Positions 2,709 through 37,471 of a stretch of 64,000 bases of DNA are shown piece by piece; within the stretch, counting starts at the first letter, position 1, and the number at the start of each line of letters is the position of its first letter. The notes below the pieces were generated by a model. It searched no databases. It was not told where the DNA came from and saw only the letters and a list, made by a program, of their open reading frames with translations. The position numbers and the translations under genes are program-made. Source of the stretch: Epithemia pelagica (taxonomy: Eukaryota; Protista; Bacillariophyta); contig OX337234.1 of NCBI GenBank assembly GCA_946965045.2, positions 2,666,001 to 2,730,000 of the forward strand, in the 5' to 3' direction.

Positions 2709-4509
2709 CCGTATTTTTCGGTTTCCTGTACCCCCGGAATGTTAACTTTTTTGTTAGGGGGGTACACGACTCCGACAATTTTAACCCTCGGTATCAGTGT
2801 CCACTGCTTAGCTGCTTTTTGTCTGTGCCACCTTCATAGGTTCCCAAGTGGACACAGACAGCATTTTTCGCTTTTGATGCAAATAGAAATTATCAAATTG
2901 CAAACTGGCACGCATGCCCAGCTGAACTTTTCGACGTTTGAAACGGACGCAAGCCCAGCAAGCGTCAGAGAATGTATACACCGGAGTGGGGCCCCAATGG
3001 TTCAGTGGGAGGTGACTCGGAGGAGGAATACGACAGCGCCATGTTTCAACCAGACAGGTTTCTTCGTCGGGATGAGGAGACAGAGAAATCAGGAACAAAC
3101 AGAGAGTGGTTCTATCCATTTTCAGTTGGTCCAAGAAATTGGTAAGTAGAAAGTTTGGGTGTGTCATGCCTGAACTTGTACATGGCATTCCGTGGCTCAC
3201 TTGACTCTACGATCGACCTCTTTGAGTCTTCAGTGTGGGACAACCAATGGCGATGGCCGAGGCAAAATCAATTTTGTTTCACTTAGTGGGACGGTACCAG
3301 TTGAAACCACCATCTAGCACCGGGCCTGATGATCCAGTCGATGGATTTTCGCGTCCGTTTTATCTCATGACCATGACAATCAAGCCTCACGAAGCTTGGG
3401 TTGACATTCTTCCTCGCAGTCCGTTGCGAGACTAGTACAGATTCCGAGAGGACGTTCATTTATCAATTCCTGTTGAAACACTCATCGCCATCGTCATATT
3501 CGTTATATAGCGTTCTGGTATTAGCACATGTACTAGAGTTTGTCATTATATATTGACCCGTTCGGCCTCTCGACGTGAGCAGTGTCATTGATCTCGCACT
3601 ATCACCCACTCTAATATTGTTAAAGCTCTGCTCTGCTCCGATCTTGCTTTGCTTTGTGCTCGATCAATTGTTCTTCTCCAGTTCCTTCTTACGAAATAAC
3701 ACTCTCATATAACCAAATTGCTAAATACGGTGGGGTGGTGAACGAACAAAACTTCTTTTAGCTTGCTGAGCTCGGTATCCATTTTGACCTTCTTCGATGT
3801 ATATTTGGAAATCTATGATTGTAGTCTTGAGTGGTTGTGACCCATCAACAAGTGCCAGAGATGGTGGGGATGGTAAGCCGCGAGAAAAGGATCGTATCAA
3901 AATGGGTCTTCGCATTTAAATTCGAAAACAATAACCCTCGGTATCAGTGTCCACTGCTTAGCTGCTTTTTGTCTGTGCCACCTTCACAGGTTGGTGACCC
4001 GGCGAGGACAACCACCAACCGTCAACTGTCACTTGCACGCTGGCCTTGCTTCAACCCTGAGGAATTTTAATGGTTAGACAGACAGACGAAAAACGAAAAA
4101 TGCTGTCTGTGTCCACTTGGGAACCTGTGAAGGTGGCACAGACAAAAAACAGCTAAGCAGTGGACACTGATACCGAGGGTTTTTTAAGATTCCATACGGA
4201 TAGTACAATTAAATTTATAGTAAATTTCATTATCAACATCGGAGTTGTAGAGAAGGGTTGGTCGCACTATTCCAGTTAGGGGAAAGACCGTGGTGCCGTA
4301 ATACCCATCAGGTTGTATCTCTTGTTTCTCCTCTTTGATTTACTCCCATTTAATGTCAGTCAGTGCGATAGAAAGCTTGGAGCGTGAGGATTGTGGGGGT
4401 AACCCTAAAACCAGGAAAGAGCCTACAGAAGAAAAGTTACGATACCATGTACTGATTGTGGGGGAGGGGGGTACACGACTGGGGGGGTACACGAAACCGA
4501 AAAATACGG
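2709..4509. mobile_element. Non-autonomous Tc1/mariner/pogo-type TIR element (1.8 kb)
   Basis: TA at 2707-2708 and 4510-4511. 27-bp TIR CCGTATTTTTCGGTTTC(C/G)TGTACCCCC at 2709-2735 and 4483-4509, one mismatch. No transposase ORF. Confidence 0.85.
2785..4179. mobile_element. Nested non-autonomous TIR element with piggyBac-like ends (CCCT...AGGG)
   Basis: 86-bp inverted repeats at 2785-2870 and 4094-4179 (2 mismatches). Left end preceded by TTAA, right end followed by TTTTTTAA. Extra 58-bp copy of the left end at 3935-3992. Confidence 0.7.
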
Positions 4510-12564: not shown

Positions 12565-14727
12565 CTACAATGAGCTCGTTGCATTCATCTCCAAAGGTGG
12601 GCTTGTCTCATTGATGTTGGGAGCATAGAAAAACTCCAACGGATTGTAGAAATCTTCAATCATGAGCTTTCCAAAATAGTTCTCGACACTTTCCGCTCCA
12701 TCATGAAATGTATCCACGTTTTCCGATATGATACGGATACGCAATGGCAACTTGTCAACCACAAACTCGACCGAGTCAGAATGATTCATCGGAGTGGAAA
12801 TGGTAATGTTTTGAGGCCACGTCAAAAATGTGACGCGAGATCTAGCATCTTGCACACGAACATGCCCTGGATTTACGTGTTGGTAGACTGATGAATGCGC
12901 ATCCAGTTTGGTGTCCAGACGAAGCAACATCTTGTTCGACCACGCCCGTGGCGACAAGGACGTCAAGGCAATATCCATGTCAATGACCCCGTCTACCTGG
13001 TGTACCGTTCGAACGACTTGGTCATTACCAAGGGTAACAGCTTCTCTGACATTGTCACCTGCTAGGCAGTTGTTATAGGACGTGGAGACACTGTTGATGG
13101 GTTGTACGTTTACTGGGTCAAGCGAAGCGGCGTCACTCCAGGTTTCGACCACAGGATGGTGCAGCAAGCCCGTTCGGCCATCAATACAGGTCTTTCGAGG
13201 AATATGCAAGTCTTGAACACTTTGTTCTGTATGGTTCCATCCTAATCCGTACATCCGAGCATAAGCCCAGCGACAGGTTCGACATGTACCATGAGTTTTG
13301 GTCATTTTCATTTTGGCGTCAAAGTCTGGTTGCGGTAGTCGACGCCATTCGTGGTACGAACTGTACAAGGTTTTGTTGTTTGCCACTTTTACCAGGTATT
13401 GAAACAGGGCCTCCGTGTTGGGAAAGTCATTGACGAGAATGAGGGAGTTTTTGGGCGCATGTTCTCGTACATTTGGCGCTCCAAAGTAAACGGGAACCGT
13501 ACCCGCTTCTAAAGGTCCCCACAATTTTTCCGTAATGTAATCTGGAACGCATTGATTTTCAAATGCGAAGTAAAACAAGTACTTGTTCATGATACTTACC
13601 TTGTTTCGAGGTGTTGCCCCAGGTGGCAGGTTCGCGTTGTGCTCACATTTGGAGACAGACTCCACTTTGAAGGGAATGTCATTAGAAGTTGCATTTCCCA
13701 CCTGTATGGCTGCACTGTTTTGTGTACTGTTTTGTGACGGTGAAGCAAGTCGGGACAAGTCTTTAATGAGCTTTTCCCGGTGATTTCGACTATGACAATT
13801 CCGGGCTAGGAAGACTCCACCACGAATGGCTTGGTCAAAGTCCACTGGTTCTGCGTCCCAGATCTTGTATTCCACGTCGTTGTAGTACGGAAGAGGGATA
13901 TCTGATTGGTAGGAGCTTGTTGAATAGAAATGATCGTTTTTCCATTCCATTGCGCGGATTTCTAGCTCCCTATAGTTATGCGGTCCTTCCATCGATGCTG
14001 TGATTCGCCAATTAGTTCCCTCGATATTCCTCTGATTTTTTAGAGACATTACTCCCGATTCTTGACACGGTATATCACAATCTGGAAATGGCTGGGGGCT
14101 TCCTCTGGCATTGATGAAGCGAGCATGCACTGGAGGCATATCAGTTCCGTGAATGTCAGGGATAGTGGGAAACAAATGTCCTCGATCGAAGCACCCATCC
14201 GCGATAGCAATGATATTGTTGGGTGATATGGTACTTCCACAAAGATGGCGTTCCTTCTCGTATGGATTGTATACAAAGACAGTAGGTGATAAGCTAGAAT
14301 CACCGCATGCTGCATGATAATCAATTGAAAAACCATTTGTTGTTTCTGATGTCGTTCGCCGACACGAAGTCATGGTGGTTCCATTCAAATGTTCTTTCCC
14401 AAGAGTTTGTTCCATTGTCAGAAGTTTTCGAATATAGGCCCGATCCAACACCGCAAGTCCGATTGGATCTTCTCTCACATGTGGTATGATGATTGAATAG
14501 ATTTTGTCGTTTCCGGTGGGAAAAAGTGTGGTCCGTTGCTTGTCTGGGGTTGCGATGTTTGCTGCAATATGGTCAGAATGTTGGACAGTATCAAATGTGG
14601 ACATTAAGGTCGTCATGTAAACCAAAACAAGCACTGGAAAGACGGCTCTCCCATGGAAGAAGCCTGATATCAGCGACTTCCGTCGACTTTGGCGTTTTCG
14701 TGGGAATGGAATTCTCGACGATCCCAT
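12565..14727 (-). CDS. Alpha-1,3-fucosyltransferase (GT10) with a C-terminal extension
   Basis: Signal anchor, ARNC motif and the GT10 signature KYLFYFAFENQCVPDYITEKLWGPLEAGTVPVYFGAPN. Confidence 0.88.
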   Translation of the reverse strand: MGSSRIPFPRKRQSRRKSLISGFFHGRAVFPVLVLVYMTTLMSTFDTVQHSDHIAANIATPDKQRTTLFPTGNDKIYSIIIPHVREDPIGLAVLDRAYIRKLLTMEQTLGKEHLNGTTMTSCRRTTSETTNGFSIDYHAACGDSSLSPTVFVYNPYEKERHLCGSTISPNNIIAIADGCFDRGHLFPTIPDIHGTDMPPVHARFINARGSPQPFPDCDIPCQESGVMSLKNQRNIEGTNWRITASMEGPHNYRELEIRAMEWKNDHFYSTSSYQSDIPLPYYNDVEYKIWDAEPVDFDQAIRGGVFLARNCHSRNHREKLIKDLSRLASPSQNSTQNSAAIQVGNATSNDIPFKVESVSKCEHNANLPPGATPRNKVSIMNKYLFYFAFENQCVPDYITEKLWGPLEAGTVPVYFGAPNVREHAPKNSLILVNDFPNTEALFQYLVKVANNKTLYSSYHEWRRLPQPDFDAKMKMTKTHGTCRTCRWAYARMYGLGWNHTEQSVQDLHIPRKTCIDGRTGLLHHPVVETWSDAASLDPVNVQPINSVSTSYNNCLAGDNVREAVTLGNDQVVRTVHQVDGVIDMDIALTSLSPRAWSNKMLLRLDTKLDAHSSVYQHVNPGHVRVQDARSRVTFLTWPQNITISTPMNHSDSVEFVVDKLPLRIRIISENVDTFHDGAESVENYFGKLMIEDFYNPLEFFYAPNINETSPPLEMNATSSL

Positions 14728-14884
14728 CCTTATCCTTGCCAGACAAACTTATGGTGGAGACTCAGTATCAGCTCGTTGGATCGACCTTGCGGCACATTCA
14801 GTGCTGTTTGACTTGACGACGAAGAAACCCGAACCTGTTGTCTTCCCAGCAACTTCCGGTAATGGACTCAAAACGTAGTATTAA

Positions 14885-15660
14885 TACTTCCCGGTGTCGA
14901 GTCCTTTCAAGGAGGGACCGCCCGGCGCGGAGGGTAGAATGACGAGGAGGGCAATGGTCGAGGAGGGCGCACGCCCGACAAGACAATTGCCCGTCGAGTC
15001 ATTCTCCCGACAAGCCGGGCGCGCCCGACGCGAGAGGACGGCCAGACACAGGGAAGTAGTAAACTTACTCCCTATCAAGCTGTGTAGGTAGTGAGAAATT
15101 CCTAGAAGCCATGTCACAAAGTGTCACACAAGTGTCTCACAAGTGTCACACACGAAAGGGAAACCGTGCGACTCGCACGAAACTACTTCCCGGTCGTACA
15201 AAAAATTCTTACTGTAGTATAAAAATGTGAGACGAACTACCTACACAGTCTGGTATGGAGTTAGTAAGACTACTTCACGGTGATTCAATCCTTTAGAGGA
15301 GGGTCGCCCGGCGCGGAGGGTAGAATGACGAGGAGGGCTTATGTTCGAGGAGGGCGCATGCCCGACAAGACATATGCCCGTCGAGTCATTCTCCCGACAA
15401 GCCGGGCGCCCGACGAGGAAGGAATGAGAAATCACAGGGGAGTAATCTGCTTACTTTATATCTAGATATGTAGGTAGTGACTACGGCCCGGTTTTATTAT
15501 GAGATGGGATGTCGCAGGGACATAATGTTCCTTGCGCGGCTCACCCATGATGTCGCGCGATTCGCACGATTACTACTTCCCGGTCGTACAAAAAAATTCT
15601 ACTGTAAAATAAAAATGTGAGACGAACTACCTGCATAGCTGGGTATATAGTTAGGTAATC
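14885..15660 (+). repeat. Head-to-tail dimer of a 386/390-bp unit with a conserved rod-like secondary structure
   Basis: Units 14885-15270 and 15271-15660. Conserved GC-rich hairpin core and conserved block ACTACTTCCCGGTCGTAC...GAGACGAACTACC; compensatory changes between the copies. Confidence 0.9.
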
Positions 15661-15795
15661 CTTCTACTACTCAGAGTATCGTCACGATATAACATTCTTC
15701 ATTATCACACAGTACTACCTCTGATATGATCATACTAGGTACAGATTATTTCAATATGAGGAAAACATCGAGACTCTCGATGAATCGAGAGTCAC

Positions 15796-16091
15796 GGATG
15801 TCGGAGGATTTGGTAGATGTCGGATGATGTCGGATGACGTCGGATGATGTCGGAGGAGGATGTCGGATGTTTTTATCGCCAAAAGAATATGTACTCTCCA
15901 GCAGTTGGAATTCTTCAAGATAAATCACAAGGTTACGAGTCACTGATTGACGGTAGGCCCATCAACTGAAGGAGTAACGCTGGATAATGAGGCAAACCAT
16001 GTTTGCGCGCGAGCCCGAAACGACATCAAACGACATCAAACAACATCAAACGACATACCTTTCGACATCGAACGACATACCTTTCGACATT
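15796..16091. repeat. Two oppositely oriented arrays of a CGACATC/GATGTCG motif
   Basis: GATGTCG-type units at 15796-15870 and CGACAT(C/A) units at 16021-16091, with a ~150-bp spacer. Confidence 0.75.
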
Positions 16092-16624
16092 CCCGTTTGT
16101 TCCATACAAGAAGAGAATGGTAAGGCTCTGTATTCGACTGAGTTCAGAATGAACGTGTCGGGTAAGCCGGCAGGCTAAGGGGGTCGCATCGTACCGCCCC
16201 CGGTCAAGAAGGGACCGACGGACGAACGAGGAACGGACATTGCACCCAAAGAAGATCCCATAAGATTTGCAAGGCTACGTCGTCGTTTGTTGGGGCAGTC
16301 AAAATGACTATACCCAACAAACATACTTTGACGATTCATAAATCGTCGGAAAGAAGGGTTGAACGGATCACCAAGGATCTGATCACCCATTGGACCCGTG
16401 ATTCTCTTCTTTCGCTTCGCTTTTTCGCCTTGTCGACCGTGCCATCCACCTCATTTGTTTTCACCATGACGTTTGCGTGGGGAGGAACTCCGGATTCTTC
16501 GCCTTTCTGTGGGGTCGTCAGGTGAGTCTGTTTCTGGTGGGAGTGTGACCGGGGGGGGGGGGGGAGCCTGCGTTCGGGTTCTCTCTACGGTGTCGTTCGT
16601 ATTGAACAGTCACAGTTCGATACT

Positions 16625-18841
16625 GTGTGTCGTGGATTCGTTGGCGCAGGGCAGCGCATGTGTGTTCGTTCGGATTGTCAAGTGGCTTTGCATTCCCAAA
16701 AGAAGAAGACGTGGAGTTCGCTTGTGGGGGATGATACCACCGCCATCTTCATTCGTGGTTCAAGTGGGACAACTTCTGCTGAAGCGCTGGGTACAGTCTT
16801 TTGTACACCTGTGCTACCGGGACAGTGTATGCGAGGCGTGGACTGGAATGAAATGGAACTGAGTCCTCGTACATTGGAGAGTTGGCAAGCCTCGTTTACA
16901 GCCCTTCGGAAGGCTTCCTCCGAGTCGGGTGAAGGCGTGGATCCCACAACTGCGGCTCAGTTCATGGAGACCACCAAGTCCGTAGTAGATTTCACCATGA
17001 CTCCGCGCCCGAAGAAACGATCAGTGGAAGTGGAAACGGTTATGGACGATGACGATGAAGACGGTTTGGTTACACCCAAGCTCAAACGCCGCGAAATTCC
17101 CTGGAAGGACGTTCCTACTGATATCAGTACCTCAACGCCCACCTTAGCGGTAAGGATCCTTCAAGGAGGAGCGTGGAGCAACCTGGTTGAGAATGTCACC
17201 ACACTTCGTGACGATCTTGCTCGCGAAGTGGCGGATTGGCGCGTGTCTGAAGAGCAACAAGAAGAGCAGGTTGACAAACTGGATCTCAAGCTATCGGTCC
17301 TTCATGAATTGCTGGGAAAGCGACCGTCTCACTTTGGGACGCGATTGGCTTTTCAAGTTCTGGATAGTTGCGTATCGAACATGGCGACGGTCGAACAGTT
17401 GGTCATTGAACGTTTGAATCAACAAAAGACTCCAAGCTCAACTCGAGACGATTCGTTTCTTGAAAGCAAGCTTTCAGCATTGGACACTCGAGTTGGATTG
17501 TTGACTGGCCAATTCAAGGTGCTCGTCAAGAAGGAACTTGAAGCTTTCTTGGCAGACACTTCAACTGATTTTCGTTTGCAGTTTGTTGATCCGACCTTGT
17601 CGTTACTCTCGCGGTCGTCGCGCTCTCCCACGGATCCCGGGGGAAAATGGGCTGATGCCCTACAACATTTGCAACAGCGGTTGGCGAGTCTCGAACAAGC
17701 GCATGCAACGAACGTATCAGGTTCGGGAGGGTCAGGAGGCATGAGTTCGGGCGGTGGTTCTTTCAATTGGTCAACTGGAGGGCTTGCTTCAGGAATAGGA
17801 TCACAGACAGGATTGGGAGTCCGTTTTGGTTCGTCACCCTCTCAGACAAATGGTGGAAAGGATGTTGGAGGAGAAGTAGGTGTTGATGTGGCGAAGCTGC
17901 AGGAAGATGTGAAAAACTTGCAGACGATGTTGAAGGAGTTGAAAGAGCAAGTGGATACCGATTCAATCCCGATCGGATCGATTATCTTTACTTCTCGTGC
18001 CTTTTGCGTCACTTGGATGGAGTTGCACCATGCCGCATCGGACCCTCACGTTTTTGTGGATGCCATCTCGTTGCTCTCTTTGGCGACATCGGATGCTAGC
18101 CCAGACGAAGAAAGGGCAGCCAACCAACGAGCAACCACGGCCAAGGTTAGGGATAAAACACCCTATCACACGGCCTATATAGCGTCGTTCAATCTCGAAG
18201 TACCACCGTTGTTGGGGAAAGGGTCTGATCAAGCAACAACGACGAAGACCCGTGCTCTCGGAGCTGTTCCACGTTTTGCGGACTTTCACCCTCCGTCGGG
18301 GCGTGAAGGCATCCACCAGCGCATTTTGGATTATGTAAAGGACGGTGTGCATACAATAGAGCAAGCAGTGGGTGAGCTTTTTGCATTTGGGACGGAACCG
18401 TCGAGTGTTGCCAAGGAACTGCTCTTGTGGAGTAAAACCTTTTGGGATGAACTCACTCATTGGATGGTCAGGTACCACGCTCAGGTACAGGCGGAAAGTG
18501 AAGCAAGCGAACAGGAAGTGTGGATTTTGATATCCCACTGCGTTCGAGCTGTGTTCAAGAGCCTCAGGGAAGCTCGTGCATCTGGACAAGCTTCCAACAC
18601 TCCAGGTGGGATGCTCTGGGGTACTCTCAAAGCACACCGAGTAATGCAAGAGTACCGTGCTGCAGATTTTAGCGGCCATCCGAGGATTGCGCTCATTCTC
18701 CATGAGCATTTGATTAGATTCACAACACCGCGTTCCAAATTCGACACACTTCAGATGAGTTTGAATGATAGGCTGGACAAAATGCAACGGGCGGTAAATC
18801 AAGCAGTTTCGTCCGCGAACAAATCGACAAAGAAGACGTGA
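16625..18841 (+). CDS. Gag-like ORF1 of the YR retrotransposon; probably extends upstream across the G14 run at 16551-16564
   Basis: 738-aa ORF with an N-terminal Cys/His motif (CRGFVG..MCVRSDC...H) and coiled-coil segments, located 5' of the RT. Confidence 0.7.
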   Translation: MCRGFVGAGQRMCVRSDCQVALHSQKKKTWSSLVGDDTTAIFIRGSSGTTSAEALGTVFCTPVLPGQCMRGVDWNEMELSPRTLESWQASFTALRKASSESGEGVDPTTAAQFMETTKSVVDFTMTPRPKKRSVEVETVMDDDDEDGLVTPKLKRREIPWKDVPTDISTSTPTLAVRILQGGAWSNLVENVTTLRDDLAREVADWRVSEEQQEEQVDKLDLKLSVLHELLGKRPSHFGTRLAFQVLDSCVSNMATVEQLVIERLNQQKTPSSTRDDSFLESKLSALDTRVGLLTGQFKVLVKKELEAFLADTSTDFRLQFVDPTLSLLSRSSRSPTDPGGKWADALQHLQQRLASLEQAHATNVSGSGGSGGMSSGGGSFNWSTGGLASGIGSQTGLGVRFGSSPSQTNGGKDVGGEVGVDVAKLQEDVKNLQTMLKELKEQVDTDSIPIGSIIFTSRAFCVTWMELHHAASDPHVFVDAISLLSLATSDASPDEERAANQRATTAKVRDKTPYHTAYIASFNLEVPPLLGKGSDQATTTKTRALGAVPRFADFHPPSGREGIHQRILDYVKDGVHTIEQAVGELFAFGTEPSSVAKELLLWSKTFWDELTHWMVRYHAQVQAESEASEQEVWILISHCVRAVFKSLREARASGQASNTPGGMLWGTLKAHRVMQEYRAADFSGHPRIALILHEHLIRFTTPRSKFDTLQMSLNDRLDKMQRAVNQAVSSANKSTKKT

Positions 18842-18907
18842 GAGCTTCAAGAAAATGACCGCAACAGTCGTAAAACTACGAAACGAAAAACAACATCAAG
18901 CGAAGAA

Positions 18908-21900
18908 TTGGAGACTCAAGATACCAAGATGAAAAAATTAGCGAGCCAAGACATTAAGGATTACTTTAGGATACATGCAGCCACAGAGACAAATGACGGA
19001 GTTGCCAAACGCATGGAGTCCAAGATATCCGTAGGAAAAGGAAAATGGCGAGTTGGGTTGGTAAGCACAATCACCCCCTTTTGGTTTTGGGTGGTAGCTT
19101 CGCTAGGAGAAGTTGTCTGGATAGATGTTTTGGATAAGGAATTGTTGAGTGAGGAAACGGGAGCGATGGATTGGAGAAGTAAAGCATTGGACCTGCAGCC
19201 AAGGCAAACAAAGAATCGCGGAATTAAGCGACGCAGAGTTTCTTACTGGACGGCAGCAGATTGGTCCACAAGGGAGACTGTGGATATCATATTCTTTGAG
19301 AGGAGCATAGTCCCAGGCCCGGATCATGATGTATGGAGACAGTCGGAATTGAAGCTGGTATTTTGGATAGGAGGAAAGAAGAAGGGTGGCCCTCCATTGA
19401 CTGAAGCGAGTCAATGGAAACAAGGCATCATGAAATTGGATCACACGGACCTCGGTGGGGTTACAAACCTCGAATCCTGGATTCATGTTTCAGAGCGAGT
19501 GGATTCAGATGAGAGGCGGTTCGTGGATTGTTGGGCAGACCATTTGGAACAGGGTCTGCAGCACACGACGTTCCGAGGAATCGTGGATCCGACAATACAG
19601 GGGAAGGAGTGTCCTCTGAGTCTGTTTCATGACGATAGCTCTGAGAGGAATGTGTGGAAGAGAGGAGTGTCAATTTTGGAAAGGAAGATGGTTTGGAAGA
19701 AGGACGTTGCAAGGACACACATTCTTCCAAGTGTGTTCGCAACAAGATCAGGCTTCGTGGAGCGCAAGATTTCTTCAAGGGAGCTCGCAGTGGCCTTGGA
19801 TTTTCCAGCTGCGTTGCATAAAAAGGGGTCAGAGCAAGAACTCGATCGTTGGACTGTGGACATCGGCGTTCCTTTCAAGAGCCGGGTCCAAGTTGCGCGA
19901 TCAATTCTGGGATGGATGAATGATAGAAGGGAAGCGAATGATCAGAAAGAAAGATCAGACGAAATGAGTGAGGAATCGTTGTCGGATATGGGACAGGGGC
20001 CGAGATCACAAACGCGAATGACGGAGAACTGCGAATTGTTCACATCTCTTGATAGCGAAGGTGGAGGCTCTTTAAACATGGAAGAACGAAGGGAGGACGG
20101 GAATTTGAAGGCGACAAAAGCGGATGATGCCGAAATCCCGACTTACTTGTGGGACGACAGAATCTGCTCGCACTTTGATATGACAAGCGTGAGCGATCGA
20201 GGACGAGGCATCCAGGCTCTGTCGGTAATACGGCGTGTGGCGTTGAAGTATTGGAAACGGTTGGTGTGTAGTGACTTTTGGGGATGGTGGAAAAGTCAAC
20301 GTTTTAGAGACGACAATGATGAGAAAGAAAGGACGATACGAGCAGGATTAAGTGCACTCACGCATGCTTCCCAAGCCTCATGGTGGGACTGGGATCATGG
20401 ATCTTCTCCATTCTTTTGGAGAATGCCCAAGCTTGACTGGCTCGTGGAGATGCGCGATGGAGTGGAACCGATGTGGATCGGGGATCCGCCCGCATACCGA
20501 CGAAGACAGCAAGCGAATCCGGATCCAGAGTCTCGCGCTCTAGAAAAGAAGAAACTGAAGAAAGTTAGACATCGAGGGTACATTGTGAAAACGGCGGACA
20601 TCAAGTCGCTTACCAGTTTCTTTTCGGTGCCGAAAGGCAACACAGATATACGGATGGTCTATGATGGGACCAAGAGCGGTTTAAACGACGCGCTTTACGC
20701 TCCGTGGTTTGGTCTCGGCAACGTCACGTCCATGCTGAGAACTGTTGAAGCAAAGACATGGTTGGCTGACAACGACTTTGGGGAGATGTTTTTAAACTTC
20801 TGGATCCACCCGGATCTCAGAAAGTATACTGGCATCGACATCACCGAACTCTTTCCCGAGGAATTGAAAGAGAAGTATGGAGCGACTCGGCTTTGGGAGG
20901 CGTGGTGTCGATGTGCCATGGGTTTGACCACGTCGCCCTATCAAACCACGCAGTGTGCCCAAAGAGTCAAACGGGTCATTTTTGGAGACAAATCGGATCC
21001 GAACAATATCTTTGGTTGGACTGACGTGCGTATCAATCTGCCAGGGGATGATCATTATGATCCATCGCTTCTGTGGATAAGTAAAGTGAGAGCCAATGGA
21101 GATATCGCGGCCGACGTCCATCCATATGTTGACGACTTACGCGAAACGGCTCCAACGGAAGAAGAAGCGTGGTTAGCTGCAAGCAAGATGGCTAAGGGAG
21201 CATCTTACTTCGGACTTCAGGATGTAGCCAGGAAGCGACGCTCCCCAAGTAAATCACCAGGGGCATGGGCCGGTGCAGTCATCGAGGCAGCCAACGATGG
21301 AAAGGTGTACAAAACAGTGGCGCAGGAAAGATGGGACAAGACTCGGAAATTTGTCCACACTCTCAAAGATTGGGCAGACGGCGGTGGATTGGTGGATCGT
21401 AAGGAGTTGGAGCGTATCAGAGGTTTTCTCGTATACGTTTCACTCACTTTTGATATTATGGTTCCCTATTTGAAAGGGATCCATTTGACCCTTGAATCAT
21501 GGAGAGACGACAGGGACGAAGAAGGTTGGAAGTTAAATGAAAAGGATCGTAGAGCTGTAATCCGGAAACGGGAAAGGGAGCTCCATGCTCCACCCAAGGT
21601 GAAGCAGGCTCCACGATTCAAGGACGACGTGAAGGCATTGGTTAGACTGACGGATCAAGAACATCCTCCAAAGATCTTGGCACGACCGACGTCTGGAGCA
21701 AAAGTAGCAATGATCTTTGCCGACGCGTCTGGTGAAGGGTTTGGGTCTTCACTGTGGATTTATGGAGGATCTACAGTAGACACTGAGCACGGTCTATGGA
21801 CACGAGAGTATGGGTCCCGCTCGTCAAATTTCAGGGAGTTGTACAATCTTGTTCTGAGACTAGAGAGACTGGTTCAAGACGGAAAATTGCCCGAAGGAAC

Positions 21901-22651
21901 CGAGGTGTTTATGTTCACGGACAACTCGACAGCAGAGTCTGCGTTCTACAAGGGAACGTCATCCTCGAGATTGCTGTTTGAATTAGTGCTGCGAACAAAA
22001 CAGTTGGAAATGAATGGTCACATTTTTGTTAGAGTGATCTGGGTGGCCGGTACAAGAATGATAGAGCAAGGGACCGACGGTCTTTCTCGTGGCGATCTTA
22101 TGACTGGAGTCATGACCGGTTTAAACATGCTCCTTTACGTACCATTGAACAAGACGGTGATCCAACGTCAGGAGAATGTTGTACCCTGGCTGGAGTCAGT
22201 TGGGCACACGGCATACAAGTGGAGAGTTTTACAAACTCACGAGTGGTTTGATGAGGCGTTCGAGGACGGGGAATTTATTTGGACACCACAGCCTGCTATT
22301 GCAGATGTGGCAGTTGACTTGTTATGCGACGCTCGCCACATCCATACTAGAACCGCACACATGTTTGTTTGCCCTGCGTTAATGACTAACAGGTGGCGAA
22401 AGAAGTTGGGGAAGGTGGCGGATTTTGTTTTTACCATCCCTGTAGGCACCGAATTGTGGCCAAAGTCTCATCACGAACCGTTGATTGTTGGTTTTGTCTT
22501 TCCTTTTCTTTGCAGCCCTCCATGGCAAGTTAAACGAGCGACAAGCTTATTGGACGAGGTGGAAGGGAAACTGCCGAGCGTGTGGGCATCCGGTACAACC
22601 TCTGTCCGGGATCTGCTGCGCAAACTTTGGCGTTTCAAGGGGAACGAGTAA
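18908..22651 (+). CDS. Pol of the YR retrotransposon: degenerate DNMT-like domain, RT, RNase H and MT-like tail
   Basis: RT motifs FFSVPK, IRMVYDG, DNDFGEMFLNF, MGLTTSP, YVDD, GAWAG. RNase H motifs FADASG, SSNFRE, FTDNS, GTDGLSR. Confidence 0.92.
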   Translation: METQDTKMKKLASQDIKDYFRIHAATETNDGVAKRMESKISVGKGKWRVGLVSTITPFWFWVVASLGEVVWIDVLDKELLSEETGAMDWRSKALDLQPRQTKNRGIKRRRVSYWTAADWSTRETVDIIFFERSIVPGPDHDVWRQSELKLVFWIGGKKKGGPPLTEASQWKQGIMKLDHTDLGGVTNLESWIHVSERVDSDERRFVDCWADHLEQGLQHTTFRGIVDPTIQGKECPLSLFHDDSSERNVWKRGVSILERKMVWKKDVARTHILPSVFATRSGFVERKISSRELAVALDFPAALHKKGSEQELDRWTVDIGVPFKSRVQVARSILGWMNDRREANDQKERSDEMSEESLSDMGQGPRSQTRMTENCELFTSLDSEGGGSLNMEERREDGNLKATKADDAEIPTYLWDDRICSHFDMTSVSDRGRGIQALSVIRRVALKYWKRLVCSDFWGWWKSQRFRDDNDEKERTIRAGLSALTHASQASWWDWDHGSSPFFWRMPKLDWLVEMRDGVEPMWIGDPPAYRRRQQANPDPESRALEKKKLKKVRHRGYIVKTADIKSLTSFFSVPKGNTDIRMVYDGTKSGLNDALYAPWFGLGNVTSMLRTVEAKTWLADNDFGEMFLNFWIHPDLRKYTGIDITELFPEELKEKYGATRLWEAWCRCAMGLTTSPYQTTQCAQRVKRVIFGDKSDPNNIFGWTDVRINLPGDDHYDPSLLWISKVRANGDIAADVHPYVDDLRETAPTEEEAWLAASKMAKGASYFGLQDVARKRRSPSKSPGAWAGAVIEAANDGKVYKTVAQERWDKTRKFVHTLKDWADGGGLVDRKELERIRGFLVYVSLTFDIMVPYLKGIHLTLESWRDDRDEEGWKLNEKDRRAVIRKRERELHAPPKVKQAPRFKDDVKALVRLTDQEHPPKILARPTSGAKVAMIFADASGEGFGSSLWIYGGSTVDTEHGLWTREYGSRSSNFRELYNLVLRLERLVQDGKLPEGTEVFMFTDNSTAESAFYKGTSSSRLLFELVLRTKQLEMNGHIFVRVIWVAGTRMIEQGTDGLSRGDLMTGVMTGLNMLLYVPLNKTVIQRQENVVPWLESVGHTAYKWRVLQTHEWFDEAFEDGEFIWTPQPAIADVAVDLLCDARHIHTRTAHMFVCPALMTNRWRKKLGKVADFVFTIPVGTELWPKSHHEPLIVGFVFPFLCSPPWQVKRATSLLDEVEGKLPSVWASGTTSVRDLLRKLWRFKGNE

Positions 22652-24062
22652 GACATGTACCGGGATATGGCACGCGAGATGCTATCGGCAATTTGAAGCG
22701 GATAAATTTCCAGTCTTGCAGGCCTCGGATTTGGATGATGCCTTGCTGGATTTAGAGGGACATGGCAAATTGGATGACGATGAGCATCGTTTCAAGGAGG
22801 CACGTCCTGGGGATGACCTCATGGTGGCCTTCCAATGTGATGATTGTTGTTTTTACAACTTGCAAGGACGATACCCCTCATCACGGGAAGAAGACAAGCT
22901 CCTACAGCTCTGCATTCACAGAGCTATTTTGGATTCGTTCTGGGCACGAGAAAGATCAACAGTCGAAAAGAACTGGAGGGAAGTCAAAGGCTTATTGGAA
23001 ACAAGTGCCACGATGGGCTTGGACTCACCTTTGCCGAACCGAGGTCCTTTCGCGGTTGGAGATGACAATGGTCTAAATGTTGCCTGCATGATGCTGATGA
23101 AGACGCTGAGAGCAGGCAAGAACTCGACCCACATTCAATTTGAGACAGCGCGAAAAGTGAGATCCGCCGTATCTAACTTCTTCCATACAATACCGGGAGG
23201 GACTGGTTTGGCGACTGTGGGACAAGGCGAAAGGGGAGGTCTGTTTTTTAGCGCCAGCTCCACAAATTCTCATTGGTTCCGGCGATTCATGACCGGGTGC
23301 CATCGCAGAATGGGGGACGTCTGGATCCCAGACCAAGCGGTCACCGTTGATGAAGTCAAGGCTGCGCTTTCCATATTAGAAGAGGAGTGGATCGGCGGAG
23401 CGACAGGACAACGAAAGGTGGAAATCGCTTTAACAGGCGCAATGGTTGTTGTTGGATACGTCGCCGCATTGAGAGGAGAAGAGCTGCCGCAGATTGATGT
23501 TGGATTAATGCGCAAGTATTGGGAAGAAGGGCTGAATTATTCAAGGAAGAAGCACGTTCCCCTTGCCTTAGCGGGCAGATTCAAACAGACCACAGGGACC
23601 TTCTGAGTTTATATGCACCCGTTGGCAGAAAAAACGTCGTCTGGAATAGACGTCCGGCAGTGGTTAGAGAGAGCAATTCGGTGCTTGCACCAACAAGGAG
23701 TGACCAGCGGGCCCATGTTTCGGATCACTAGAAAGCGAGGGCAAATCGCTCGTGCATCGGTCGGAGACCTGGATTCGCTTTTCCACCCATTATGGAAACG
23801 AGTATAACATCGCTTCCCAGGTCTGATTGGCGAGTCAGTGAAAGTGGATGAAGATTACAGCGTGAGGAGATCTTTTCGTCGGAGAGCAACCACAGAAGCT
23901 CAAAATCGACAAATTCCCAGAGAGGTAATAGAAATGAACAACCGCTGGCAAAAGCACATCAAGGGCAAGGGAGTACTGCCCAACATGTCCATGTTGGAAC
24001 GTTATTCGGACGCTAAAGCTTCAGTGGAAGCTCTTCTTGTCAGGTTCTCAGAACTGCTGTAA
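22485..24062 (+). pseudogene. Tyrosine recombinase ORF with two in-frame stops (TGA 23604-23606, TAA 23805-23807)
   Basis: ORF pieces at 22485, 23613 and 23838 share one frame. Motifs ALRGEE, GRFK, RRSFRR, NRW and terminal ERY; N-terminal Cys/His motif. Confidence 0.85.
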
Positions 24063-24911
24063 AAGGGAACAGGCGATGCAAGGAAGGGATGTCAGAACGG
24101 AGAAATTGAATTCAAGTTGGAAACGAAGATGGAACGACCACACGGGGAGATGACTCGACTATACCTCTTATGGGGTATGTCCAGGTCGCTTTGATGACTG
24201 TCAGCTTGACTGTTGATGGGAGGAAGATCTCTCTCCTGGTTGGCATGTTGGGGTGTGGCAACCTTGACATGCTGACCGTCCTTTTCTTGCGAAGATACTT
24301 TCGAAGATTGGGGCTCACCCTATGGTGAGTAAATGGAGAATGGGTTTTCTAGCCTAGAGGCACACTCGCACGCAGCATACACGGGGTAGCAGAATCTGTA
24401 GTTCTGCGACCGTGGCGCGATTCAGGATCCCTCCCGATACTGGGATATGGGTGGGGGGCCTAGTCCCCCCCAGTGTTGGTTAAGTAACATCTTAATACTA
24501 TATTATTGCAAACGAGAGGTCATGGGATTTGATTGGTGCACAGGTCGTGACGACTGAGGATGAAGTACCTGGGGGTGGAAAAACATCAAAGACTCAAAAA
24601 CATTTTTTTAGCTCAAGACTCGAAATTCAGTACTTTACACCAAAACCTTCCCACGTTAGACAAAAAACGCCGGGCCAACCCCTATTCAAAACCATACAGC
24701 CCCGAAGAAAAACAATGATTGAAGAACGGTCATCCATTGTTCTATCAATCCATTAAATAAAAACCATTTTACCACGCTGTTCCACGTCAGAATCACGCCC
24801 AACGAACCAACCCACGAAACATCTCCCCACGCCCTTAGGGAGGGTAGCAACTATGTCACTAGCACCTAGCCAAACATAGAAGCTGAAGACCCAGACTTGT
24901 GCTATCTCTCA

Positions 24912-25604
24912 GTAGCTAGGATTGAGTACAATAGGTCCCACGCATCTATTACTCCTAGGTTCCTACTTGATTGATTGCATCAAGTATAATCCATGTCGAC
25001 TACAGTTTGGTTGCCATCATAGCTACCCCTAGTATCTCTGGAGTCCAAGTCGACTCCATTATTGGAATATCCATTATCCATCACAAATTGGATCTGAGTC
25101 ATGGCTTCAGTCATGAATGACATAGTCGTCTGCCCATCATCCGAATCACATCCGGGTGGTTGTATGAGTAGTGAGTAGCTATGCTATCTAGCTAGCTAGT
25201 AGACCGCTAGCTACACTCAGAAGAGGTAGGAGCAGATCCGGACCTAGATACTGGTGATTGTCACCAATTGGTTTTGGTAGGAAAGCAGCAATCTCTTGGT
25301 AGCTAGGATTGAGTATAATAGGTCCCACGCATCTATCAGGTTCCTACTTGGTTGCATCAAGTATAATCCATGTCGACTCCAGTTTGGTTGCCATCATAAT
25401 CATAGCTACCCCTAGTATCTCTGGAGTCCAAGTCGACTCCATTGGAGTATCCATCGCAAATTGGATCTGAGTCTTGGCTTCAGTCATGAATGACATAGTC
25501 GTCTGCCCATCATCCGAATCACACACGGGTGGTTGTATGAGTAGTGAGTAGCTATGCTATCTAGCTAGTAGACCGCTTGCTACACTCAGAAGAGGTAGGA
25601 GCAG
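24912..25604. repeat. Tandem duplication: 324-bp and 306-bp copies, 387-bp period
   Basis: Copies 24912-25235 and 25299-25604 both run GTAGCTAGGATTGAGTA...AGAAGAGGTAGGAGCAG, differing by small indels. Confidence 0.85.
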
Positions 25605-25980
25605 GGTTACCCGGTATTTTGTCCATAATAGTGTGGAATAGATCCCTGGGCAATAGTAGGTGTCCAACTAAGTTTTGGTCTTGGACATCCGTTGTCCTCC
25701 TATGTAGATTTCATCTCTTATTAAGTGATACACTCGGACATGATCCACAATAGCCCTGTATGTAGTCATCATGTGTCACATAATGTACTGCCCTTTTATG
25801 ATTTTTAAACTGACTTATGTGTCACAACACTCACAATAGCATGATAAGTACTTCCTCCACAGACACTGTGTGCCAGATCTCAATAGACTCTCCAGCGCTC
25901 TCACTCTCTTAAAGTTTGCAGTATTGTAAATGAGGAGAGCATAGAGAACGCTAGCAACTGGAATACAACTGACCATTGAA

Positions 25981-27114
25981 TCGGACAACGGACAATAGGA
26001 CACGGACAGCGAACAATAGGACACGGACAACGAGCAATAGGACACGGACATGGGACAATAGGACACGGACATGGGACAATAGGACACGGACAAGGGACAA
26101 TTAGGACACGGACAAGGGACAATAGGACATGGACCATGGACTTGGGCCGGCACTACTAACCATCAAAGTCAACCACCACGATGATGTTGACACTAATGAG
26201 GTGCAAAACAACAATCAAACTTTCCCACCCATGCGTGTGGAATTGTTTAAGACAGGGATGAAGTCATTTGGACAATGAATCGGACAATCGGACAACCAAT
26301 CGGACACTCAGACAGCCTCCATATGAAACAACATCACTCACCAGGAAAGCCAGACAACAATCAAACATCAAGTGGGTGAATGCAACAATGAATCTGTTTT
26401 GTTCAATGGGTGGATGGGGCTTCACCAGACAATATCTTTGCTCATGGCTGGTCATGCAATGAACTCAAATTTTTGTCAACTTCGCTCGTTTTCCCCCTTC
26501 CGAAGTCGAACTCAAATCATATCATCATATGGCAACAGAACAAACACACCTATATAATCTCTTCTAATAATATGATAGTTGTCTGATTTTTGCTCGTCAA
26601 TAATCTCGTTGTACAGTGCTTGGTTTGCATTATCCGACTGTGATTGTCTGTATTCCACTTGTCCGATTCAATGTCCACTTCTTTTTCTGACTGTCCTATT
26701 CACCAACCTACTCGTGCCCAAACCCTCCCCATCCCCCATAATATAATAAAGTTGGATTGTTACATTCACCCACTCGATGTTTGATTGTCGTCTGGCTTTC
26801 TTCGTGAGTCATGTGGAGGTTGTCCGATTGTCCGATTCGTTGTCCGATTGTCCGATTCATTTTCCTATTGTCTTCTTCCCTGCCATAAACCTTTGATATG
26901 CATGATTGGGAAAGTTTGATTGTTGTTTTGCGCCCCATTAGTGTCAACACCATCGTGGTGGTTGACTTTGGTGGTTAGTAGTGCCGGCCCAAGTCCATGG
27001 TCCATGTCCTGTTGTCCCTTGTCCATGTCCTATTGTCCCTTGTCCGTGTCCTAATTGTCCCTTGTCCGTGTCCTATTGTCCCATGTCCGTGTCCTATTGT
27101 CCCATGTCCGTGTC
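25981..27114. mobile_element. Foldback-type element with ~350-bp imperfect inverted arms containing a 21-bp tandem repeat
   Basis: Arms at about 26041-26390 and 26750-27114. Unit GGACACGGACA(T/A)GGGACAATA on the left and its reverse complement on the right. No ORF; TSD not identified. Confidence 0.75.
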
Positions 27115-27678
27115 ATGTTCGAGTCAACTCCTCTGGATGATTGCATAAATCCATAATGGTATCATTCTTCATTTCGGCACACTGCGACTTACGGATGGTG
27201 GGGTTCGCGCCGTTCTCGGCTTGGTTTGCGAATTTATTTTCCTTCCATGCTTTCAACACTTTAACATTGTTTCTGCTATAAGAGTTTTCAAAAGGATCAC
27301 TTCGAAACACGAATAAATTCCAGGGTTTTCATGTTCGAGTCAACCTCTCTGGATGATTACATCAATCCACAATTAACGTTTATGTCGTGCTATTTTATAA
27401 AATTATTTTTACTTCTTTTTTAGGAATTTGATTAGCCACTTCTACAGGACTCAATTATGGGAATCAGGGGCCAAAGCGTCCTGTTTTCCGAAGACAGGTT
27501 TTTTTTTCAATTTTATTGCGACGTTTTCACTTCATTCAGGGGACGGTCATGGAGAAAGCCTTTGGTTTCATTGATGCTGCAAGTATGAATAATGCAGATG
27601 CAATCAGCGTCTTATTTTTTGGATATGTGGTCGGCACGTTTTTATATCCGACTCTTGCAAAACGGGAAATCAGAATAC

Positions 27679-28399
27679 ACTTAGGATATCTGCTAGCTAG
27701 GTGTGATAACGACTTGATAATCAGGGTTAGTTCAGTTGGGTAGCAATGTTAGTCAACCTATCACGTTGGATCGACGATGGGGCCCTCACCTTCGGTCTAC
27801 GATATAGGTTGACTCCTTTTGTAGACAACAGTTGCTTGTAACTTTTGTTTTTTAGAAAAGAGTGAGATTAATCTACATGAAAGTGATTTTCAGGTCTGAT
27901 CGATCTCCGATCTCAAGGAGAACTTAGCCGCTCCATTTCTCTCTTGAAGAATAGTTCTTCCTTGTTCTTTTTGTTCTTCATGATTAGATGAGAGTATTCA
28001 CCTCTCCTGATTGTTTGGGCCTTATGAATGTTCTTTCTAGAAGGTACTTACCTTTGGAACAGGCCTGCTAGATCATCTGGAGGTCGATCGTTATCTTTGT
28101 GTAATTCTCAATTTGAGAGAGAAGATATTACGACTAGAGGTATCGTCCAACTTGCGTTCGTATGAACGGATGTGTAGGCTCGCGACTTGCATTGTGCATG
28201 TATATGAATAATTAGTACATGAATCTTCCTGGACTGCTGGGTGAAGTTACTATTCAGCTAAATCCATCTGTTGTTCGTCCGTTCAACTGCAACACGAGCG
28301 TCTGTCTTACTTCAGGACAGCTGCTTTCCTCTATGTCGTAGCTATGTCATGCTATGTCACACCTAGATCTAATGGTGCTAGATGTGCTATGTTGTAACT
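27679..28399 (-). repeat. 3' LTR of Copia-1
   Basis: 721 bp; 2 substitutions relative to 36751-37471 by manual comparison. Confidence 0.95.
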
Positions 28400-28452
28400 C
28401 TCCCTCTCATTGAGTGATTGGGCTAGAATTGCGACATGGAAGGTATGATGGT

Positions 28453-36531: not shown

Positions 36532-36750
36532 CCAGTCGAAGCTTCCAAGTCCACTTGAGGTCGGGGAGATGTCGTCCGCCGTTGTGGATTCTTGGTTGGG
36601 GCCTTGATTGGCTCCAGTAGTATTTGCGCGCTTTGGATGCTTGGTAGGGACGACTCAGTGGTAGTCCTCCAAGGTAGTTAACTTCTTGATAAATCGATCG
36701 ATAGAGAGAATAGCGTATGGTTTATCAGCCTTGATTTGGGCTCAGCAACC

Positions 36751-37471
36751 ACTTAGGATATCTGCTAGCTAGGTGTGATAACGACTTGATAATCAGGGTT
36801 AGTTCAGTTGGGTAGCAATGTTAGTCAACCTATCACGTTGGATCGATGATGGGGCCCTCACCTTCGGTCTACGATATAGGTTGACTCCTTTTGTAGACAA
36901 CAGTTGCTTGTAACTTTTGTGTTTTAGAAAAGAGTGAGATTAATCTACATGAAAGTGATTTTCAGGTCTGATCGATCTCCGATCTCAAGGAGAACTTAGC
37001 CGCTCCATTTCTCTCTTGAAGAATAGTTCTTCCTTGTTCTTTTTGTTCTTCATGATTAGATGAGAGTATTCACCTCTCCTGATTGTTTGGGCCTTATGAA
37101 TGTTCTTTCTAGAAGGTACTTACCTTTGGAACAGGCCTGCTAGATCATCTGGAGGTCGATCGTTATCTTTGTGTAATTCTCAATTTGAGAGAGAAGATAT
37201 TACGACTAGAGGTATCGTCCAACTTGCGTTCGTATGAACGGATGTGTAGGCTCGCGACTTGCATTGTGCATGTATATGAATAATTAGTACATGAATCTTC
37301 CTGGACTGCTGGGTGAAGTTACTATTCAGCTAAATCCATCTGTTGTTCGTCCGTTCAACTGCAACACGAGCGTCTGTCTTACTTCAGGACAGCTGCTTTC
37401 CTCTATGTCGTAGCTATGTCATGCTATGTCACACCTAGATCTAATGGTGCTAGATGTGCTATGTTGTAACT
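36751..37471 (-). repeat. 5' LTR of Copia-1
   Basis: Matches 27679-28399; followed in element orientation by a PBS-like GGTTGCTGAGCCCA. Confidence 0.95.

What the first reader, a model, noticed from the sequence alone, without database searches (positions are those of the whole stretch)
14885..15660. Head-to-tail dimer of a ~390-nt unit with a covarying rod-like fold and periodic GAGGA/GACAA loops
Seen in sequence: each unit forms a ~174-nt hairpin (14885-15058; 15271-15444). Its core reads CCCGGC-GCGGA-GGGTAGAATGAC-GAGGA-GGGCAATGGTC-GAGGA-GGGC[GCAC]GCCC-GACAA-GACAATTGCCC-GTCGA-GTCATTCTCCC-GACAA-GCCGGG. These are mostly 11-13-bp stems opening with GGG/CCC, separated by symmetric 5x5 purine-rich loops that can form tandem G.A pairs around a central G-C. 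A second hairpin fills the rest of the unit (CTGTGTAGGTAGT pairs with ACTACCTACACAG). The copies differ by compensatory changes (GTGTC/GACAC to GTGATT/AATCAC; GGGCAAT/ATTGCCC to GGGCTTATGT/ACATATGCCC; CTGTG/CACAG to ATATG/CATAG), and many mismatches are G.T wobbles on the + strand. Inference: the fold of a single-stranded + strand molecule is under selection. Joining the unit ends stacks both hairpins into one continuous rod, as in viroid-like or satellite circular RNAs. It could be an endogenised circular RNA/ssDNA replicon, a non-autonomous passenger of the neighbouring YR retroelement, or a ncRNA with iterated protein-binding sites. I do not recognise it as a known family.
Basis: partly seen in the sequence, partly recalled or inferred. 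Interest (0 to 1): 0.9.

Follow-up and report, generated by a model that had tools for sequence, protein, structure and literature searches.

The report
Self-splinting rod-shaped diatom mini-transposon
Two diverged copies of a 390-base, many-copy, non-coding mobile element sit head to tail at one insertion site in a probably diatom genome; each is predicted to fold into a rod that brings its own two ends together, and it likely spreads by borrowing the enzymes of tyrosine-recombinase retrotransposons, which would make it an undescribed kind of miniature retroelement.

Summary
Two units (14879-15264, 15265-15654; 75% identical) each fold into two long hairpins (z -8 to -11). Hairpin 1 carries four purine-rich 5x5 loops spaced about 17 nt apart. 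Contigs of public runs show a dispersed repeat of roughly hundreds of copies. Copies end at the same TAG, and in another sample the same locus appears empty, with one TAG. So this is a recent insertion of two different family members, not a local duplication or a rolling-circle multimer.

A central strand pairs with both termini and sets them end to end, and it co-varies with each unit's own ends. That is the layout of the internal complementary region of DIRS retrotransposons, and a trinucleotide at both ends fits their integration model. A gag/RT-RNaseH/YR element lies 870 bp away, but it shares no sequence with the unit.

No Rfam family, ribozyme, tRNA head, long ORF or outside homologue was found. 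Two copies cannot give significant covariation, and expression was not tested. Best reading (0.5): a non-autonomous DIRS-order mini-element that moves as a self-splinted single-stranded circle.

The parts
14879..15264 (+). Unit 1 (386 nt), member of the most abundant subfamily; ends in TAG
   Evidence: loose ends at 15264-15266 and summed depth
15265..15654 (+). Unit 2 (390 nt), a diverged subfamily; ends in TAG
   Evidence: empty-site joints
14876..14878 (+). TAG left of the dimer, read as the target's trinucleotide; the empty site has one TAG
   Evidence: tables 5, 7, 8
14879..15063 (+). Hairpin 1 of unit 1 with four G(A/C)GGA-facing-GAC(A/G)A type loops at 16-18 nt spacing and a tetraloop tip
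15265..15449 (+). Hairpin 1 of unit 2, four loops at exactly 17 nt spacing; core 93 of 98 positions identical to unit 1
15030..15095 (+). Central splint of unit 1 (ICR-like): its 5' half pairs with the unit's start, its 3' half with the unit's end; the predicted meeting point is 15063/15064
   Evidence: pair probabilities 0.96 and 0.99
15418..15482 (+). Central splint of unit 2; meeting point 15449/15450; changed together with unit 2's own start
15094..15166 (+). Variable segment of hairpin 2 (38 of 73 identical to unit 2), with an 11-nt minisatellite at 15112-15152
15167..15230 (+). Conserved, weakly structured block (56 of 64 identical) with a direct copy of the start motif at 15182-15193 that pairs with the splint better than the true 5' end, two A-runs and a TATA-like word; same block about 15557-15620 in unit 2
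14859..16100 (.). Host repeat that received the dimer about 20 bp from its left edge; both edges approximate (left inferred from where single-copy contigs end, right not mapped; depth stays high to 15950)
   Evidence: internal inverted subrepeats
16526..24062 (+). Neighbouring DIRS-order retroelement: gag-like ORF (by position), RT-RNase H ORF, tyrosine recombinase ORF interrupted by two stops; candidate type of helper, not shown to be the helper

Best explanation
This is a many-copy, non-coding, 390-nt mobile element, here inserted as two different family members at one TAG, and it likely is a non-autonomous passenger of tyrosine-recombinase (DIRS-order) retrotransposons that would move as a self-splinted single-stranded circle. 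Shown by calls or sequence: dispersed high-copy repeat, shared TAG ends, empty sites with one TAG, a central strand complementary to both termini, four periodic purine-rich loops. Inferred steps: (1) a copy is transcribed; (2) the loop ladder is the signal bound by helper Gag or RT, or keeps helices too short for Dicer; (3) helper RT copies it in trans; (4) the + strand folds so that its 3' and 5' ends meet on the splint and are joined; (5) a YR recombines the TAG of the circle junction with a genomic TAG in a junction-like site, leaving one TAG from each partner; (6) the edge of a resident copy is half a junction, so later insertions there build head-to-tail arrays of unlike units. Whether the folded + strand is the RNA or the cDNA is open.
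For: Mobility: summed contig depth over unit 1 is 35,800-218,800 against 202 on the flank in run X1 and 15,300-77,600 against 118 in X3 (the tool warns this is no true copy number); loose ends at 15264-15266 run into unrelated sequence; six joints link 14873-14877 to 15652-15663; X3's single-copy flank contig (7,897 nt) stops matching at 14878 with 10 loose letters, and the loose-end table gives the letters of 15655-15664 there (all). Architecture: last and first bases pair with adjacent splint bases in both units, as for the DIRS ICR, described as complementary to both extremities and required for retrotransposition (PMC7192593, passages). [quoted passage not shown] DIRS RT acts in trans (section heading and passages). 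A large family of RT-RNase H and Cre-fold proteins exists in this lineage (1,099 and 146 relatives). The empty site resembles the unit's own junction on its right side (8 of 9 letters, read).
Against: No sequence is shared with the neighbouring YR element: 15 of 16 local alignments were within shuffle range and the one outlier held for unit 2 only (which also covers two unrelated control stretches). No terminal repeats or ICR were found in that element, so its own ends could not be compared. The unit lacks real inverted terminal repeats. DIRS ICRs are near-exact complements because they are copied, while these arms keep mismatches in both units, including T.T at the T of TAG. A shared TAG cannot be told from a 3-bp duplication at a fixed target. 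About half of all positions in a rod have stacked neighbours (196 of 386), so abutment alone is weak. Covariation is not significant with two copies.
Confidence: 0.5

Rival explanations
1. Non-autonomous rolling-circle (HUH) element: a Helitron2-, Replitron- or IS200/IS605-like enzyme peels off a folded ssDNA circle and pastes it beside a fixed short target.
For: No duplication beyond TAG; tandem copies; folded single strand. If the element is read as starting with TAG, it has a 5' T and inserts before a T, as Helitron2 does (PMC8969392, passage). The circle junction of unit 1 matches the CRESS origin nonamer at 8 of 9 letters (nonamer recalled), unit 2 at 7 of 9 (by eye).
Against: Canonical Helitron ends (5' TC, 3' CTRR, A|T target) are not met. 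No short terminal hairpin or asymmetric inverted repeat was seen; the internal copy of the start motif is direct, not inverted. The recalled CRESS nick position is not the observed boundary. Replitrons were not detected in diatoms (PMC10288648, passage). None of the 15 window ORFs scanned had an HUH domain.
Confidence: 0.18
2. A viroid-like or satellite circular RNA replicon whose cDNA was captured in the genome (retroviroid- or retrozyme-like).
For: Size 386-390 nt, 63-68% of bases paired, seamless circular rod, no ORF over 50 codons.
Against: No Rfam match and no ribozyme core conserved in both units; retrozymes are defined by hammerheads (PMC5680766, passages). The two units are 25% diverged, unlike a rolling-circle multimer. 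Copies share precise ends at many loci and one locus appears polymorphic.
Confidence: 0.1
3. Foldback or MITE-type DNA transposon with a 3-bp TAG target duplication; the hairpins are decayed internal inverted repeats.
For: High copy number, short, non-coding; TAG flanks both sides; it sits in a repeat-rich region.
Against: The termini are complementary to the middle, not to each other. TAG pairs with the splint in both units. Mismatches are not random: 35 of 59 are A.G in four periodic modules.
Confidence: 0.1
4. Non-autonomous Crypton-like element: a YR excises and integrates a DNA circle with no reverse transcription.
For: Short direct repeat at both ends, no inverted termini; CryptonS occurs in a diatom (PMC3212892, passages).
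Against: CryptonS has 5-6 bp repeats, mostly TATGG. A duplex DNA circle has no use for a single-strand fold.
Confidence: 0.07
5. SINE-like element copied by a LINE or Penelope enzyme by target-primed reverse transcription.
For: Short, abundant; the + strand of unit 1 has no run of four T.
Against: No tRNA head, no A or B box, no 3' tail, no variable duplication at the one site mapped.
Confidence: 0.05

Closest known systems
DIRS1-like YR retrotransposons (ICR and circular junction; PMC7192593, PMC3266345)
   Same: One internal strand complementary to both extremities side by side; same trinucleotide on both sides of the insertion; insertion into or beside earlier copies.
   Different: No ORFs, 390 nt, no real ITRs, splint in the middle rather than near the 3' end, arms imperfect with retained mismatches, TAG rather than the usual NTT, periodic purine-rich loops.
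TOC1 of Chlamydomonas (non-autonomous DIRS-order element; named so in PMC9940879, passage)
   Same: Precedent for non-autonomous passengers of YR retroelements.
   Different: TOC1 is several kb with split direct repeats (recalled); this unit is a 390-nt rod with none.
Retrozymes and viroid-like satellite circRNAs (PMC5680766)
   Same: Small, non-coding, highly paired, circle-competent, tandem copies.
   Different: No ribozyme, LTR, PBS, PPT or 4-bp duplication; tandem units are unlike each other.
Helitron2/HINE and Replitron non-autonomous elements (PMC8969392, PMC10288648)
   Same: No clear duplication, short target rule, tandem copies.
   Different: No ATIR or short end hairpins; the whole element is paired; Replitrons not reported from diatoms.
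Integron cassettes and CTX phage, folded-ssDNA substrates of tyrosine recombinases (recalled, not read)
   Same: A folded single strand would rebuild an imperfect duplex site with a short crossover match; unlike units in head-to-tail arrays.
   Different: Eukaryotic, non-coding, dispersed; the site would be made by a distant splint, not a local hairpin.

Membership tests
DIRS1-like element | ICR complementary to both termini, adjacent | tested here: met
   both ends pair with adjacent bases of one central strand in both units (predicted fold)
DIRS1-like element | Same trinucleotide at both ends, single in the empty site | tested here: met
   at the one site mapped; cannot be told from a fixed 3-bp duplication
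DIRS1-like element | Terminal trinucleotide complementary to the ICR junction | tested here: inconclusive
   2 of 3 bases pair; T.T in both units
DIRS1-like element | Inverted terminal repeats (66-316 bp in PMC3266345) | tested here: not met
   none; only a partial match of about 8 letters across the junction
DIRS1-like element | gag, RT-RH, YR ORFs | tested here: not met
   longest ATG ORF 50 codons
Non-autonomous DIRS-order element | Termini shared with an autonomous YR element | tested here: inconclusive
   none with the one neighbour; its ends are unmapped and no genome is held
Ngaro/PAT | Split direct repeats | tested here: not met
Retrozyme | Hammerhead or other self-cleaving ribozyme | tested here: not met
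Viroid-like RNA | Circular RNA that replicates RNA to RNA | not testable with these tools
   needs strand-specific and RNase R data
Canonical Helitron | 5' TC, 3' CTRR, A|T target | tested here: not met
   sequence and empty site
Helitron2 | 5' T, insertion before T, ATIRs and end hairpins | tested here: inconclusive
   first two met in one register of TAG; ATIRs and short hairpins not seen
MITE | Terminal inverted repeats | tested here: not met
SINE | tRNA/5S/7SL head and 3' tail | tested here: not met

The most novel reading that the evidence does not exclude
Diatoms carry a family of ribozyme-free circular cassettes. Each folds into a rod whose middle strand splints its own ends, so the folded single strand is itself the recombination site for a retrotransposon tyrosine recombinase. 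They integrate at junction-like TAG sites and pile up as arrays of unlike units, a eukaryotic parallel to integron cassettes. The 17-nt ladder of tandem G.A loops is a shared code for helper binding or for escaping Dicer.
Probability: 0.25. Interest if true: 0.85.

Novelty: new variant of a known kind. Interest (0 to 1): 0.65.

Why it matters
How DIRS-order elements close and integrate their circle is still a model; the cited work says the YR's specificity had not been tested. A 390-nt natural mini-element that is abundant, apparently still polymorphic and built almost wholly of cis signals would be a ready substrate for that test. It would also add a class of short retroelements that is neither SINE, TRIM, MITE nor retrozyme, and so is likely missed by repeat annotation of diatom genomes. 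If the circle is RNA, it links genome-borne elements to ribozyme-free viroid-like circles.

Tried and rejected
Rfam: one chance match at E 5.4 in 14000-16600, none at gathering score in the window. ARAGORN: none. Homologue hunts: 15 viral and 103 metagenome loci for a hairpin-tip pattern; 0 of 118 extend beyond the pattern. A second viral pattern gave 2 loci, neither with a BLAST match at 1e-3; GTDB gave 66 loci with matches of only 20-31 nt, 62 of them in one bacterial chromosome inside a repeated reading frame that looks like an IS transposase (my reading, untested), rejected as chance. Phage and plasmid BLAST: no match. Loci of RT relatives: none confirmed in viral or GTDB collections. A covariance model of the core found no further copy in the window, only generic hairpins in the two copia LTRs. 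Sequence profiles missed the RT and YR; folds found them. Sequencing runs: 23 listed, no RNA holder listed, which says nothing on expression; small-share runs that I did not lay are not used. Intron (Introner) reading: GT..AG can be drawn, but removal would not restore the empty site and the site is intergenic. Unphased variants (31 rows in the units, of 40 shown and 81 found) could not test covariation. The protein atlas gave no answer. Ten literature searches listed no paper on such an element in diatoms; the library lacks most subscription journals, and Repbase could not be searched.

Full report
Setting. The window is eukaryotic and repeat-rich: copia RT domains, a fucosyltransferase, IGPD and a bestrophin were found among 15 ORFs scanned. 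The named relatives of the neighbouring recombinase come from the diatom Epithemia, so a diatom host is likely. No whole genome is held.

The observation. The two units are 14879-15264 and 15265-15654, 74.6% identical. Unit 1 folds at z -11.3 with 0 of 100 shuffles as good; unit 2 at z -8.1. Windows over the dimer rank 2nd, 4th and 6th of the 390-nt windows scanned across the 64 kb. Identity is uneven: hairpin core 93 of 98, loop block 56 of 64, arms 67-79%, variable segment 38 of 73. Hairpin 1 has four symmetric purine-rich loops, spaced 18, 17, 16 nt in unit 1 and 17, 17, 17 nt in unit 2. A.G makes 35 of 59 non-Watson-Crick juxtapositions; G.T leads A.C by only 10 to 5. On the - strand the loops would be pyrimidine mismatches, so the + strand is the likelier folded species (inference). 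Tandem G.A pairs are stable in both RNA and DNA (recalled), so the molecule type stays open. Covariation between two copies is suggestive and not significant: 8 double changes against 2.3 expected under a uniform rate, which overstates the case because rates differ by region; 6 of 8 doubles and 6 of 13 singles keep pairing (p about 0.07 and 0.14). Some of the 9 broken pairs are register shifts in a re-paired stem.

It is a mobile repeat. Contigs of four public runs were laid on 14600-15950. In X1 and X3 the flank has flat depth 202 and 118, while bins over unit 1 sum to 35,800-218,800 and 15,300-77,600, from 1,093 and 337 laid contigs in all. The tool warns that this is no copy number, and extrachromosomal molecules could add to it; hundreds of copies is a rough reading. 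The run types are not on record; X3 has contigs up to 509 kb and so looks like DNA. Loose ends at 15264-15266 lead into unrelated sequence, so units end at the TAG at other loci. Six joints link 14873-14877 to 15652-15663, so the target is itself a repeat that is often empty. X3's 7,897-nt single-copy contig matches up to 14878 and has 10 loose letters, and the loose-end table shows the letters of 15655-15664 at that place in two contigs; I read this as the same locus without the dimer in that sample. The empty site has one TAG; the filled site has TAG left, middle and right. Two marine or biofilm metagenomes also hold pieces, one a 221-nt contig identical to 14875-15095.

The ends meet on a splint. 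Folded as a circle, G15264 pairs with C15064 and T14879 with A15063 (probabilities 0.99, 0.96); in unit 2, G15654 pairs with C15450 and T15265 with G15449. The start of unit 2 differs from that of unit 1 and its splint differs to match, so each unit is a self-contained entity. About half of all positions in a rod have stacked neighbours, so the abutment alone proves little; what counts is that read-defined ends fall where one contiguous strand pairs with both termini. The model gives the circle no energy gain over the linear form. [quoted passage not shown] The differences are real: no inverted terminal repeats, a central splint, retained mismatches including T.T at the T of TAG, and TAG in place of NTT. 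So the unit works like a DIRS end-joining module but is not a DIRS1-like member.

The neighbour. ORF 18842-22651 folds confidently (pLDDT 92) like retroviral-type RT with RNase H (best Foldseek hit CaMV RT, E 1.4e-15). An intact relative of ORF 22485-23606, 74% identical, folds like Cre (E 9e-5). The local recombinase frame has two stops. The RT region has 1,099 relatives among 7,996 candidates. No terminal repeats or ICR were found in this copy. Of 16 local alignments of the units against its two UTRs, the host repeat and the second dimer, one (unit 2, - strand, 3' UTR) beat all 100 shuffles, and unit 1 did not repeat it. The link to YR elements therefore rests on architecture and insertion signature, not on shared sequence, and proximity may be chance.

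Mechanism. Best reading (0.5): transcription, copying by a helper RT, self-splinted closure of the + strand, YR integration at TAG in a junction-like site, with later insertions at the edge of resident copies. All these steps are inferred. Two hints fit: the right side of the empty site matches the unit's start at 8 of 9 letters (read), and three X1 contigs continue after the unit's end with a start-like motif followed by a different body. An internal direct copy of the start motif pairs with the splint more strongly than the real 5' end (-17.6 against -13.4 and -12.8 against -8.9 kcal/mol), which could be a switch that frees the 5' end. Rivals are an HUH-mobilised ssDNA element (0.18), a captured circular RNA replicon (0.1), a foldback DNA transposon (0.1), a Crypton passenger (0.07) and a SINE (0.05).

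Comparison and novelty. No Rfam family, tRNA, conserved ribozyme core or long ORF was found, and no homologue outside the laid runs. Papers seen: passages of PMC7192593, PMC3266345, PMC8547959, PMC12477816, PMC10288648, PMC5680766, PMC3212892, PMC9940879, PMC8969392; others as search listings only; no supplements were read, and TE libraries in supplements or Repbase may already hold this family under 'unknown'. Ten searches listed no description of such an element in diatoms. Earlier AI notes of this scan report high-copy hairpins with G.A rungs every 16 nt in other diatom genomes, and a folded DIRS junction likened to integron sites; I could not check them and use them as leads only.

Verdict. 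A real, carefully built and apparently still mobile non-coding element with a DIRS-like end-joining design and an unexplained loop ladder. New variant of a known kind; interest 0.65.

Noticed in passing
window 24901-25604: A second, unrelated direct dimer of about 380 nt (87% identical) right of the YR element; weak fold (z -2.6); could be tandem LTR-like repeats.
   Followed up: partly
window 24060-24500 and 16100-16560: The YR element's untranslated ends fold better on the sense strand (z -4.2 and -2.7 against -1.6 and -1.5), yet no terminal repeats or ICR were found: possibly an undescribed end structure for diatom YR retroelements.
   Followed up: partly
window 15445-15452 (run X6): Two low-depth metagenome contigs match up to the splint midpoint and then continue with two related, different sequences: possibly hairpin 1 joined to another second half.
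   Followed up: no
window 15300-15571 (runs X1, X3): Contigs of 907 and 1,385 nt match with 29 differences up to the base before the internal copy of the start motif, then go on unlike: perhaps a longer relative or a second crossover point.
   Followed up: no
window 25961-27135: MITE-like element with long inverted arms made of 21-nt subrepeats.
   Followed up: no
window 27670-37041: Copia element with a 2,733-codon ORF and LTRs 98% identical; each LTR holds a hairpin picked up by the model search.
   Followed up: no
window 2773-4184: Inverted-repeat element with the lowest folding energy of the window scan.
   Followed up: no
L121-L186 (GTDB record OZ220486.1): 62 copies of one IS-like element, several with apparent stops or frameshifts, in a 4.76-Mb Paracoccaceae chromosome.
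   Followed up: no
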